In this document: positions 50,201 through 53,200 of the stretch, piece after piece
Position numbering within the stretch: the stretch's first letter is position 1
Layout of the letters: every line of letters begins with the position of its first letter
Assembly (NCBI RefSeq): GCF_003790525.1
Contig: NZ_CP033635.1
Length of the DNA stretch: 64,000 bases
Origin: Escherichia coli
GTDB taxonomy: Bacteria; Pseudomonadota; Gammaproteobacteria; Enterobacterales; Enterobacteriaceae
Reading direction: 5' to 3' (one strand)
Position numbers: made by a program

Positions 50201-53200
50201 ATGGCGAAGGGATTATCTGCCCCTGCATGAGCGGCAATCCACTCTGAGGGAATAAAGCCATAAATAAAAGAGCCTATTAATACCCCTAACAAAGATATGG
50301 CAGTACATCTTTAAACTGTTGCAACGCATCTTTGGTGGCTAGTTTTATGGGATTAATACTTACCACAGCTTTGGTATTGCAACAGTTAACTACGGGTTTC
50401 TCAATGGCTTTAGCCGTTGGACTACAGCAACTCACTTCTATTGGCGTATATGTCGTCCCCGGCGAAGTTTTGGCTGGAGCACAACAATTTGCTGATGAGC
50501 TTTTACTGGCAATGATATGACGTTCAAATCCCAGGGAATCCAGGATAATACTGGCAAGTACGGAGACGCCGGCGGCGATAATCGCGTACAACAAGGTAAC
50601 TTTCCAGCCAAAGGTCACCCACATTAACCCGACGATAATGGGATTAAGTAATGGGGAAACAAATAAAAAAGTGAGGGTCGGACCAAACCCGGCTTTCGCT
50701 GATAACAATCCACGTAACATGGGGATTGTCGAGCAACTACAGAACGGGGTAACGGCTCCCAACAGAGCAGCCAGGAGATAACCTCTCCCTTTTCTGGCCC
50801 CCATCATCTGCTGGATTTTATGGTCTGGCACCTTTTGTCTTATCAGGCTGACACCGGCACTAATCACTATAAACAGCAAAGAAAGCTCGACGGCGAGAAA
50901 CACAAACATCTCTGCGGCATCTTGCAGCATCGCAAGCCAACTACTCATACGTAACCTCATTGAATAAATCTATATTTCCAGAATAATCGAAATGAAATTC
51001 AGATCAAGATATTTCTGGTATTATCGAAATATCAACCAGACAGAGGGGAGTCATATGCAGTTGGAAGAAGTTGCTAAAGCGCTGAAAGAGCTAGGTCACC
51101 CGACCCGTTTGTTCATATTTAAGCATCTGGTCAAAGCGGGGGAACAAGGTTTGCCGGTCGGTGAGTTGCAAAAGCAGCTTGGGATACCCGGCTCTACACT
51201 CAGTCACCATATTTCAGCACTGGTATCGGTAGGGTTGGTCAAACAAAACCGTGAGAGTCGGACGCTGATGTGTGTTTCGCAATACGCAATGCTGGAAGCG
51301 ATAATTGAATTTTTACGTGAGGAGTGCTGCGTAAACAGCAAAACAGATGGCGAAGGAGCCACGAAGAACAAATAAGGGGGCATATCCCCCTTTAGCTATT
51401 TCAGGCGTTTACCCGCCTCATCAACCACTTTCTCGCCATCTTCCTTGGTGAACGCGCGTTGTTGCGCATCTGGCAGAATTTCCAGCACCACTTCTGAAGG
51501 GCGGCACAGGCGAGTTCCCAGCGGTGTCACCACAATCGGGCGGTTAATCAGGATGGGATATTGCAGCATAAAGTCGATTAACCGATCGTCAGTAAATTTA
51601 TCTTCTGCAAGGCCCAGTTCCTCATACGGCTCAACGTTTTTACGCAACAGCGCACGAACGGAAATCCCCATATCGGCAATGAGCTTGATCAGTTCATCGC
51701 GTGTGGGTGGAGTTTCCAGATAATAGATAATGGTCGGTTCTGTACCGCTGTTGCGAATCATCTCCAGCGTATTACGCGACGTGCCGCAGGCCGGGTTGTG
51801 ATAAATAGTAATGTTGCTCATATCAGTATCTCATTACAAAGTGAAAGAGAGACGAAGCGCCAGCGCGGCGAGCGTCACAAACAGCACCGGCAGGGTCATG
51901 ATAATCCCTGTACGGAAGTAATATCCCCAGCTGATAGTCATATTCTTCTGCGAAAGTACGTGCAGCCAGAGCAGCGTTGCCAGGCTACCAATCGGTGTAA
52001 TTTTCGGCCCCAAATCGCAGCCAATTACGTTGGCATAAACCATCGCTTCTTTGATGACACCAGATGCCGTGCTGCCATCAATGGACAACGCGCCAACCAG
52101 TACCGTCGGCATATTGTTCATAATAGAAGAGAGGAAGGCGGTGAGGAATCCGGTGCCGAGCGTCGCCGCCCACAGGCCGTTATCCGCCAGCACGTTGAGT
52201 ACGCCAGAAAGATATTCCGTTAATCCGGCATTGCGCAGGCCATAAACCACCAGATACATGCCGAGCGAGAAGATGACAATCTGCCAGGGCGCACCGCGCA
52301 GCACCTTACCCGTATTAATCGCATGACCGCGTTTAGCGACGACAAATAATATCAGCGCGCCCACTGCCGCAATGGCGCTTACCGGAATGCCGAGCGGTTC
52401 CAGGACGAAAAATCCCACCAGCAGAAGCAGTAAAACAACCCCGCCAGTTTTGAAGGTGGCAGGATCTTTAACCGCTTCTGCGGGAGATTTTAGCAGCGCC
52501 ATGTCGTAGTTCTGCGGAATATCTTTGCGGAAATAGAGATGCAACATCACCAGGGTAGCCAGTATTGCAGCGATATCCACCGGCACCATCACCGAGGCGT
52601 ATTCGCGAAAGTCGAGGCTAAAGAAATCTGCCGAAACGATATTCACCAGGTTAGAGACAATAAGCGGCAGGCTGGCGGTATCGGCAATGAATCCGGCCGC
52701 CATAACAAACGCCAGCGTAGTGCCTTTGTTGAACCCTAAAGCCAGCAGCATGGCGATGACAATCGGTGTCAAAATAAGCGCCGCGCCATCATTGGCAAAC
52801 AGAGCTGCAACGGCAGCACCGAGCAGGACAATCCAGGTAAACAGCAAGCGACCGCGCCCATTGCCCCAGCGTGAGACGTGCAGCGCCGCCCATTCAAAAA
52901 AGCCGGACTCATCCAGCAGCAAGCTGATGATAATGACGGCTATAAACGCCGCCGTCGCGTTCCAGACGATATTCCACACCACCGGAATATCGCCCGGATG
53001 GACCACGCCAGTAACTAACGCCAGTACGGCGCCCAGTGTCGCACTCCAGCCGATGCCTAAACCTTTCGGCTGCCAGATAACCAATACGATGGTCAGGACA
53101 AAGATAGCGCCCGCCAGTAACATCATGCCTCCTTGATAAAACACATTCGAATATTCATATGTGTTTAGATAAATTTTTTAACTACAAATATTCTTACTGT

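What the first reader, a model, noticed from the sequence alone, without database searches (positions are those of the whole stretch)
50972..51030. Duplicated ~22-bp palindromic motif in the divergent promoter between the ArsR-family regulator and the permease
Two near-identical copies, atatttccagaataatcgaaat and atatttctggtattatcgaaat, each have ATTTC and GAAAT ends and lie about 37 bp apart between the divergent starts. This is the arrangement expected for a dimeric winged-helix repressor autoregulating itself and the divergent gene.
Basis: seen in the sequence. Interest (0 to 1): 0.45.

Follow-up and report, generated by a model that had tools for sequence, protein, structure and literature searches.

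The report
Twin operator sites for ArsR-family repressor
Two copies of a 22-bp, palindrome-ended DNA motif sit between an ArsR-family regulator gene and a divergent ArsP-type permease gene; they are almost certainly that regulator's binding sites, which is an ordinary repressor/operator layout but belongs to an uncharacterised, widespread and plasmid-borne branch of the family.

Summary
ATATTTCCAGAATAATCGAAAT (50972-50993) and ATATTTCTGGTATTATCGAAAT (51009-51030) are 18/22 identical and 37 bp apart. They lie in the 106-bp gap between an ArsP_1 permease gene (minus strand, start 50948) and an ArsR/SmtB regulator gene (plus strand, start 51055).

The operator reading is strongly supported by comparison, not by binding data.
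- In 80 homologous loci (56-97% regulator identity; several gammaproteobacterial genera, Pseudovibrio, Desulfobulbus), TTTC-N10-GAAA is about 100-fold enriched upstream of the regulator.
- One site sits about 41 nt before the regulator's ATG.
- Loci with a divergent permease have 2-3 sites. Loci without one mostly have 1.
- All 15 matrix hits elsewhere in 460 kb lie just upstream of a permease or GST gene.

The consensus is TATTTCTRnTAWTATCGAAATA. The sites overlap candidate -10 elements of both genes, so the likely mechanism is repression by promoter occlusion, relieved by a thiol-binding effector.

The regulator is closest to AfArsR. It keeps the C-terminal Cys-Cys pair and lacks Cys102. Nearby arsRBC, and arsH-arsD-arsA on pESI-like plasmids, point to trivalent (organo)arsenicals, but this is untested.

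This is a new member of a known kind, of moderate interest. The permease in this window is frameshifted.

The parts
50973..50994 (.). Operator O1, nearest the permease: TATTTCCAGAATAATCGAAATG, with core TTTC-N10-GAAA at 50975-50992.
   Evidence: Found as a repeat. Matrix score 30.7. It is a conserved block in the alignment with E. whittamii, plasmid, Aeromonas and Desulfobulbus loci. Equivalent sites occur in 42 of 43 loci with a divergent permease.
51010..51031 (.). Operator O2, nearest the regulator: TATTTCTGGTATTATCGAAATA. The perfect 8-bp arms extend it to 51008-51033.
   Evidence: score 33.4. It is identical in the plasmid copies, which are only 85% identical overall. The equivalent site starts 38-44 nt before the regulator ATG in 39 of 57 loci that have an exact-arm site.
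51002..51007 (-). Candidate -35 of the permease promoter. It reads TTGATC on the minus strand and ends 2 bp from O2. This is inferred.
   Evidence: A TTGAC/TC-like hexamer on the permease strand sits at this position in most loci with a divergent permease and is weaker where there is none (mean match 4.1 against 3.4 of 6).
50980..50985 (-). Candidate -10 of the permease promoter. It reads TATTCT on the minus strand, with a 16-bp spacer, at the centre of O1. This is inferred.
   Evidence: All six other loci with 37-bp spacing have TATTCT or TATTTT here with a 16-bp spacer. Most loci with 48-52 bp spacing instead have TATATT or TATAAT at the inner edge of the site with a 16-18 bp spacer.
51016..51024 (+). 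Candidate extended -10 of the regulator promoter (TGgTATTAT), inside O2. This is inferred.
   Evidence: Positions 10-15 of the regulator-proximal site are TAWTAT, with A11 in 36 of 38 and T15 in 37 of 38 unique sites. Its distance to the ATG is tightly conserved.
50960..50987 (+). Alternative candidate regulator promoter: -35 TTGAAT at 50960-50965, a 16-bp spacer, and -10 AATAAT at 50982-50987 inside O1.
   Evidence: Consensus scan. The plasmid copies have a perfect TTGACA at the same place. It is not conserved outside the enteric and plasmid group.
51055..51375 (+). ArsR/SmtB-family regulator, 106 aa, with invariant C73 and E90-C91-C92. Its Shine-Dalgarno sequence GAGGGGAG is at 51043-51050.
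49948..50948 (-). ArsP_1-family permease (333 aa in E. coli SMS-3-5). In this window a 1-bp deletion near 50291 splits it into two ORFs.

Best explanation
The two 22-bp elements are operator sites of the adjacent ArsR/SmtB-family regulator, with consensus TATTTCTRnTAWTATCGAAATA (TATTTC and GAAATA arms around a 10-bp core). Each is probably bound by one dimer.

O2 (51010-51031) overlaps the regulator's own core promoter, which gives autorepression. O1 (50973-50994) overlaps the -10 and start region of the divergent permease promoter. The -35 of that promoter abuts O2, so the two bound dimers bracket it.

Without inducer, both genes are held off by promoter occlusion. A thiophilic effector then binds the conserved cysteines (C91-C92, possibly C73) at the end of helix alpha5 and releases the repressor. 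The effector is most likely a trivalent arsenical or organoarsenical.

Shown here: the existence of the sites, their conservation, their position, and their link to the regulon. Inferred: binding by this protein, the direction of regulation, the exact promoters, and the effector.
For: - The sites are real and non-random.
- TTTC-N10-GAAA occurs at 5.4 per kb in the 200 nt upstream of the regulator, against 0.05 per kb in the other 460 kb of 80 homologous loci.
- The regulator-proximal site starts 38-44 nt before the ATG in most loci.
- Of 43 loci with a divergent permease, 42 have 2-3 sites. Of 37 loci without one, 27 have a single site.
- All 15 matrix hits elsewhere precede a permease gene (13) or a GST gene (2).
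- In the eight-sequence alignment of the 37-bp-spaced loci, the intergenic region is conserved only at O1 and at TCAAGATA plus O2.
- The recognition helix is invariant across the family.
- The regulator has the ArsR fold, with AfArsR (6j05) as its best sequence and fold match. Its Cys-Cys pair aligns with AfArsR C95-C96.
- A sigma-70-type promoter on the permease strand is found across lineages, with its -35 next to one site and its -10 in the other.
- Arsenic context: arsRBC lies next door; pESI-like plasmids carry regulator-arsH-sigma-arsD-arsA; arsA or arsD occur in the Aeromonas, Desulfobulbus and Endozoicomonas loci.
Against: - There are no binding, transcription-start or expression data for this locus, and no paper on this subfamily or motif was found.
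- Several promoter assignments are possible in E. coli.
- Most marine loci have no ars genes within 3 kb and instead carry an ECF sigma factor, GST or MAPEG genes, so the effector may not be arsenic.
- The third AfArsR ligand, Cys102, is absent.
- The closest named NCBIfam for the permease is a Cu/Zn efflux family.
- Site spacing varies (25, 37, 48-52, 63 bp), so cooperative binding of the two dimers is not implied.
Confidence: 0.8

Rival explanations
1. The sites are bound by this regulator, but it acts as an activator or dual regulator rather than a simple repressor. For example, it could recruit RNA polymerase or counteract silencing at one of the two promoters.
For: O2 lies just upstream of the candidate -35 of the permease promoter, a position activators often use. 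Some proteins with an ArsR fold, such as HlyU, are called activators in PDB entries.
Against: The other site overlaps the -10 and start region of each candidate promoter. The closest characterised relatives (AfArsR and other ArsR types) are repressors (PMC11868830).
Confidence: 0.08
2. The conserved blocks are only duplicated core promoter elements (-10 and -35 boxes of two divergent promoters), not protein operators.
For: Both sites contain -10-like hexamers, and the consensus scan places promoter elements within them.
Against: The most invariant positions are the symmetric outer arms TATTTC/GAAATA, which match no sigma-70 element. Vibrio sites are perfect palindromes (TTTCGATA-NN-TATCGAAA). 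The same 22-mer precedes permease and GST genes elsewhere and co-occurs with this regulator family only.
Confidence: 0.04
3. The motif is the operator of a different regulator, such as the neighbouring canonical ArsR or a global E. coli factor.
For: The canonical arsR gene lies 2 kb away.
Against: No matrix hit lies upstream of canonical arsR or anywhere else in the window. The motif travels with this regulator family in Vibrio, Shewanella, Pseudovibrio and Desulfobulbus loci and on plasmids that lack canonical arsR nearby.
Confidence: 0.04
4. The repeats act at the RNA level, as a leader hairpin, attenuator or small RNA.
For: The two copies can partly pair (72-77% complementary).
Against: Folding energy is no better than for shuffled sequence on either strand (z = -0.24 and -0.51). 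There was no Rfam match at E<=1. Conservation is of base identity, and the spacing between copies varies from 25 to 90 bp.
Confidence: 0.02

Closest known systems
AfArsR (Acidithiobacillus ferrooxidans ArsR, type 2 As(III) site; PDB 6j05)
   Same: It is the best sequence match among solved structures (E 3e-14) and the best fold match (TM 0.82-0.90, 29-30% identity). The C-terminal Cys-Cys pair at the end of alpha5 aligns with C95-C96. It is an autoregulated repressor of an arsenic-related gene set (PMC11868830).
   Different: The third ligand, Cys102, is absent, and an invariant Cys73 in the beta-wing is present instead. The recognition helix differs. The response to As(III) is untested.
SpArsR (Shewanella putrefaciens 200, MAs(III)-selective ArsR)
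   Same: According to PMC11868830 and PMC13236881, SpArsR has only the vicinal pair that corresponds to AfArsR C95-C96, and so senses methylarsenite but not arsenite. The regulator here shows the same pattern at its C-terminus. It is paired with an ArsP-family permease and, on plasmids, with arsH. ArsP and ArsH are the characterised organoarsenical detoxification proteins (PMC6205960).
   Different: The SpArsR sequence and operator could not be obtained here, so direct homology is untested. The invariant Cys73 is not part of the SpArsR description.
Classical ArsR/SmtB operator arrangements (R773 ArsR, SmtB, CzrA, CadC; imperfect inverted repeats overlapping the promoter). From my own knowledge of the family.
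   Same: The sites are imperfect inverted repeats of about 22-26 bp that overlap core promoter elements, with autoregulation and a dimeric winged-helix protein.
   Different: The arm sequence (TATTTC-N10-GAAATA) is specific to this subfamily. A conserved two-site module brackets the permease promoter. One site is shared with the regulator's own promoter.
ArArsR of Arsenicibacter rosenii (PMC11868830)
   Same: It is a recently described ArsR type with an atypical cysteine arrangement. Its footprint lies -46 to -19 from its own start codon, a position similar to O2 here.
   Different: It uses different ligand cysteines (C41, C80, C82); its C-terminal pair is dispensable. Its operator sequence is different and it has a single site.

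Membership tests
ArsR/SmtB winged-helix transcription regulators | An ArsR-type helix-turn-helix domain detected by a curated profile | tested here: met
   Pfam HTH_20 at 53.9 bits (cut-off 27) and HTH_5 at 29.4 bits (cut-off 22). NCBIfam HTH_metalloreg at 61.7 bits (cut-off 55).
ArsR/SmtB winged-helix transcription regulators | The alpha1-alpha5 plus beta-hairpin fold | tested here: met
   The AlphaFold2 model has pLDDT 89.7 and the elements H3-13, H16-31, H35-42, H46-58, E62-67, E70-75 and H77-95. The top PDB matches are all ArsR/SmtB proteins.
ArsR/SmtB winged-helix transcription regulators | Binds an imperfect inverted repeat in its own promoter | not testable with these tools
   A conserved inverted-repeat motif sits about 41 nt upstream of the ATG in most of 80 loci. 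Binding itself needs EMSA or footprinting.
AfArsR-type (type 2) As(III)-responsive ArsR | A vicinal cysteine pair equivalent to Cys95-Cys96 at the end of alpha5 | tested here: met
   C91-C92 align with the AfArsR Cys-Cys pair in the profile alignment. The pair is invariant in 19 homologues.
AfArsR-type (type 2) As(III)-responsive ArsR | A third ligand equivalent to Cys102 | tested here: not met
   The E. coli protein has no cysteine after C92 (tail VNSKTDGEGATKNK). Downstream cysteines are present in only some homologues.
SpArsR-type MAs(III)-selective ArsR | A two-cysteine site only, with response to MAs(III) and not As(III) | not testable with these tools
   The cysteine pattern at the C-terminus fits, but there is an extra invariant C73. 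The SpArsR sequence and paper were not available.
ArsP organoarsenical efflux permeases | Membership of the ArsP_1 family with the conserved Cys-x-Cys motif in a membrane segment | tested here: met
   The two ORF halves score 103.8 and 62.2 bits against Pfam ArsP_1 (cut-off 32.3). A TPFCSCS motif is present. The CSC motif is described as the family signature in bioRxiv 10.1101/2022.07.06.499078.
ArsP organoarsenical efflux permeases | Efflux of MAs(III) or roxarsone(III) | not testable with these tools
   This needs resistance and transport assays. The permease in this window is also frameshifted.
SO_0444 family Cu/Zn efflux transporter (NCBIfam NF033936) | A score above the curated equivalog cut-off | tested here: not met
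   The score is 109.9 bits against a cut-off of 300. The related SaoE model scores 86.3 bits against a cut-off of 325.

The most novel reading that the evidence does not exclude
The motif may define the operator and regulon of an uncharacterised, horizontally mobile ArsR subfamily with invariant C73 and an E-C-C motif. This subfamily would sense a thiophilic compound through a two- or three-thiol site not yet described; trivalent organoarsenicals such as methylarsenite or reduced roxarsone are the leading candidates.

It would switch on a set of proteins rich in cysteine pairs: an ArsP-type exporter with a loop carrying three Cys-Cys pairs, an ECF sigma factor with a Cys-rich tail, a GST with a Cys-Cys tail, and arsH-arsD-arsA on pESI-type resistance plasmids. 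The conserved two-site module that brackets the permease promoter would make a ready sensor part.
Probability: 0.3. Interest if true: 0.55.

Novelty: new member of a known kind. Interest (0 to 1): 0.35.

Why it matters
The regulator-permease pair is present in about 44% of complete E. coli genomes (2391 of 5426). It is also on 647 plasmids of Escherichia, Salmonella and Klebsiella, most of them conjugative and some carrying CTX-M or TEM beta-lactamase genes.

On pESI-like Salmonella Infantis plasmids the same regulator and operators head an arsH-sigma-arsD-arsA operon. A 2025 study links those genes to the persistent poultry-associated REPJFX01 strain (PMC12504007). No published operator or effector for this subfamily was found.

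A defined 22-bp operator consensus and a predicted regulon make the system directly testable. They could supply a new sensor and promoter pair for (organo)arsenical or other thiophilic compounds. They also bear on metal and antibiotic co-selection. The regulatory logic itself is conventional.

Tried and rejected
- **RNA element.** Folding energies are not better than shuffles and there is no Rfam match.
- **Literature.** I searched for the motif, for ArsR/ArsP divergent operators, for SpArsR/AfArsR, for SO_0444/SaoE and for yhiS/arsC context. Nothing describes this locus or motif. Hits to the motif string were shRNA vector sequences.
- **Unavailable papers.** The SpArsR and AfArsR primary papers are not held, so their operators could not be compared.
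- **Permease identity.** Calling it SO_0444 Cu/Zn or SaoE was rejected because scores are far below the cut-offs.
- **Consensus-scan minus-strand promoter** (TTGATA at 51035-51030, TATCTT at 51011-51006). Its -35 is only partly conserved among enteric and Aeromonas loci and is absent elsewhere, so I do not prefer it. It is not excluded for E. coli.
- **Cooperative, helical-phase-dependent pairing of the two sites.** This is not supported because the spacing varies (25, 37, 48-52, 63 bp).
- **Recent local duplication as the origin of the two copies.** Rejected, because the two site types (GAAT-type core and TAWTAT-type core) are separately conserved across genera.

Full report
**Observation**

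The window around the finding reads ...ctATATTTCCAGAATAATCGAAATgaaattcagatcaagATATTTCTGGTATTATCGAAATatcaacc.... The repeat finder reports a two-copy direct-repeat family of 22 nt at 50972-50993 and 51009-51030. The copies are 82% identical and 37 bp apart start to start. It also reports a perfect 8-bp inverted repeat, GATATTTC/GAAATATC, that frames the second copy (51008-51015 and 51026-51033). The degenerate pattern shared by the two copies matches nowhere else in the 64-kb window, and none of 100 dinucleotide-preserving shuffles gave two matches. 'Palindromic' holds for the outer 5-8 bp arms only.

**Genes and setting**

The plus-strand gene at 51055-51375 encodes a 106-aa protein that matches HTH_20 and HTH_5 (ArsR) in Pfam. 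The minus-strand gene matches ArsP_1 'predicted permease'.

The region is 99.9% identical to E. coli SMS-3-5. There the order is slp, a hypothetical gene, permease (333 aa), ArsR/SmtB factor, then arsC-arsB-arsR in the opposite orientation. The RefSeq permease start corresponds to 50948. A GAGG sequence lies 6 nt upstream of it, and the intergenic region is 106 bp.

The only difference from SMS-3-5 across 1.5 kb is a 1-bp deletion near 50291. It splits the permease into 224-aa and 114-aa ORFs.

The pair occurs in 2391 of 5426 complete E. coli genomes. Some strains keep only a 3' remnant of the regulator next to arsC. A copy about 85% identical lies on 647 plasmids.

**Test by comparison**

A protein search found about 800 homologues with E-value at most 1e-8. 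In an alignment of 19 of them, the recognition helix (S47-T48-L49-S50-H51-H52) is invariant, as are C73 and E90-C91-C92.

A scan of one genome per species returned 80 loci with regulators 56-97% identical to the query. They come from Escherichia, Aeromonas, Vibrio, Photobacterium, Shewanella, Endozoicomonas, Thalassotalea, Pseudoalteromonas, Psychromonas, Cocleimonas, Pseudovibrio (an alphaproteobacterium) and Desulfobulbus. The results were:

- **Enrichment.** TTTC-N10-GAAA occurs in the 200 nt upstream of the regulator in 56 of 80 loci. That is 87 hits, or 5.4 per kb, against 0.05 per kb in the remaining 460 kb.
- **Position.** The site nearest the regulator starts 38-44 nt before the ATG in 39 of 57 loci with an exact-arm site.
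- **Consensus.** The 22-bp consensus is TATTTCTRnTAWTATCGAAATA for the regulator-side site and TATTTCYRGAATnnTCGAAATA for the permease-side site. In several Vibrio loci the site is a perfect palindrome, TTTCGATA-NN-TATCGAAA.
- **Specificity.** With a weight matrix, 135 hits fall within 220 nt upstream of the regulator. All 15 hits elsewhere lie directly upstream of a permease homologue (13) or a GST gene (2), and there are no stray hits.
- **Site number follows gene arrangement.** Of 43 loci with a divergent permease, 42 have two or three sites. Of 37 loci without one, 27 have one site, 7 have none and 3 have two.
- **Footprint.** In the alignment of the eight loci that share the 37-bp spacing, the only conserved intergenic blocks are O1 and TCAAGATA plus O2. 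The flanks and the spacer between the sites vary freely.

Taken together this is a clear phylogenetic footprint, and the regulon is consistent with one dedicated regulator.

**Promoter layout (inferred)**

Directly left of O2 a hexamer reads TTGAYN on the permease strand. It is TTGATC at 51007-51002 in the window and a perfect TTGACA in ten loci. It is better conserved where a permease is divergent.

In loci with 48-52 bp spacing, which is the most common spacing, a TATATT or TATAAT hexamer on the permease strand lies 16-18 bp from it, at the inner edge of the permease-side site. In the 37-bp group, including E. coli, the matching hexamer is TATTCT or TATTTT at the centre of O1 (50985-50980) with a 16-bp spacer. 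The permease promoter is thus bracketed: O2 abuts its -35, and O1 covers its -10 and probable start near 50973.

For the regulator, positions 10-15 of O2 are a -10-like TAWTAT. In E. coli this is preceded by TG (TGGTATTAT, 51016-51024), which predicts a start near 51031.

The consensus scan offers an alternative or additional regulator promoter, TTGAAT-16-AATAAT at 50960-50987, whose -10 lies in O1. The plasmid copies have TTGACA at the -35 position. On either assignment each operator overlaps core promoter elements, which is the usual geometry for repression. The true start sites are unknown.

**Regulator and likely signal**

The AlphaFold2 model (pLDDT 89.7) shows the ArsR/SmtB fold of five helices and a beta-hairpin. 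AfArsR (6j05) is the best match by both sequence profile (E 3e-14) and fold (TM 0.82-0.90).

C91-C92 align with AfArsR C95-C96, two of its three As(III) ligands. The third ligand, Cys102, is missing. According to PMC11868830 and PMC13236881, this pair-only arrangement is what makes SpArsR of Shewanella putrefaciens selective for methylarsenite. Here an extra invariant C73 in the wing could serve as a third ligand, or could have no role.

Context favours arsenicals for the enteric members. The chromosomal pair abuts arsRBC. On a pESI-like Salmonella Infantis plasmid the regulator heads arsH, an ECF sigma factor, arsD and arsA. The Aeromonas, Desulfobulbus and Endozoicomonas loci carry arsA or arsD. 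ArsP is the characterised exporter of trivalent organoarsenicals and ArsH is their oxidase (PMC6205960).

Most marine loci, however, have no ars genes within 3 kb. Instead they carry an ECF sigma factor with a Cys-rich tail, a GST with a Cys-Cys tail, or MAPEG. The nearest named permease family is a Cu/Zn exporter, far below its cut-off. The effector is therefore best stated as a thiophilic compound. A trivalent (organo)arsenical is the leading candidate, at roughly 45% confidence.

**Rivals**

- An RNA element is not supported. Folding z-scores are -0.24 and -0.51, there is no Rfam match, base identity rather than pairing is conserved, and the spacing varies.
- Promoter elements alone do not explain the invariant symmetric arms, or the same 22-mer upstream of unlinked permease and GST genes.
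- The neighbouring canonical ArsR is unlikely to be the binder. Its own upstream region has no hit, and the motif travels with this subfamily in genomes and plasmids that lack canonical arsR nearby.
- An activating or dual role cannot be excluded without expression data.

**Verdict**

The element is a conventional ArsR-family operator pair. It belongs to an uncharacterised subfamily that is common in E. coli and mobile on resistance plasmids, so it is a new member of a known kind and of moderate interest. No paper in the held library describes this motif or regulator.

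Noticed in passing
window 50286-50292 (permease gene 49948-50948, minus strand): A single-base deletion relative to E. coli SMS-3-5 is the only difference in 1.5 kb. It frameshifts the permease into 224-aa and 114-aa ORFs. The gene is either a pseudogene in this strain or a sequencing error.
   Followed up: yes
window 50289-50948 (permease N-terminal part); intact copy at L001:4052-5050: The permease has a TPFCSCS motif and a loop with three vicinal cysteine pairs (NCCAPAK...SCCSPT...NCCNTK). This suggests binding of a soft metal or metalloid.
   Followed up: partly
L016, L042 and 14 other Vibrio-type loci, immediately downstream of the regulator (e.g. L042:1650-3063): The regulator is followed by an ECF sigma factor with a Cys-rich C-terminal tail, often overlapping it, and frequently by a GST with a Cys-Cys tail. 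Two GST genes have their own matrix hit upstream (L049, L079). A homologous sigma factor (24-30% identity) sits in the plasmid ars operon.
   Followed up: partly
L084 (Salmonella Infantis plasmid pN17S0976, CP052802.1) 7001-12047: On this pESI-like megaplasmid the same permease, operators and regulator head arsH, a sigma-70-family (ECF) factor, arsD and arsA, about 3-5 kb from blaCTX-M-65. The cassette occurs on 647 PLSDB plasmids, often flanked by IS26.
   Followed up: partly
L086 (E. coli HH45, NZ_CP116411.1) 2501-2570: In some E. coli strains only a 62-69 bp 3' remnant of the regulator gene remains next to arsC. The pair therefore seems to have been lost by deletion in those strains rather than gained in this one.
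   Followed up: partly
window 48145-49368 (minus strand): A 407-aa ORF between slp and the permease is annotated 'hypothetical protein' in SMS-3-5, has no Pfam match, and is frameshifted or IS-disrupted in other strains.
   Followed up: no
L027, L046, L067, L080, L052 and L041 (permease not divergent from the regulator): When the permease lies downstream of, or in an operon with, the regulator, it keeps its own pair of sites about 50 bp apart. Their orientation relative to the permease is the same as in E. coli. The two-site module therefore belongs to the permease promoter.
   Followed up: partly
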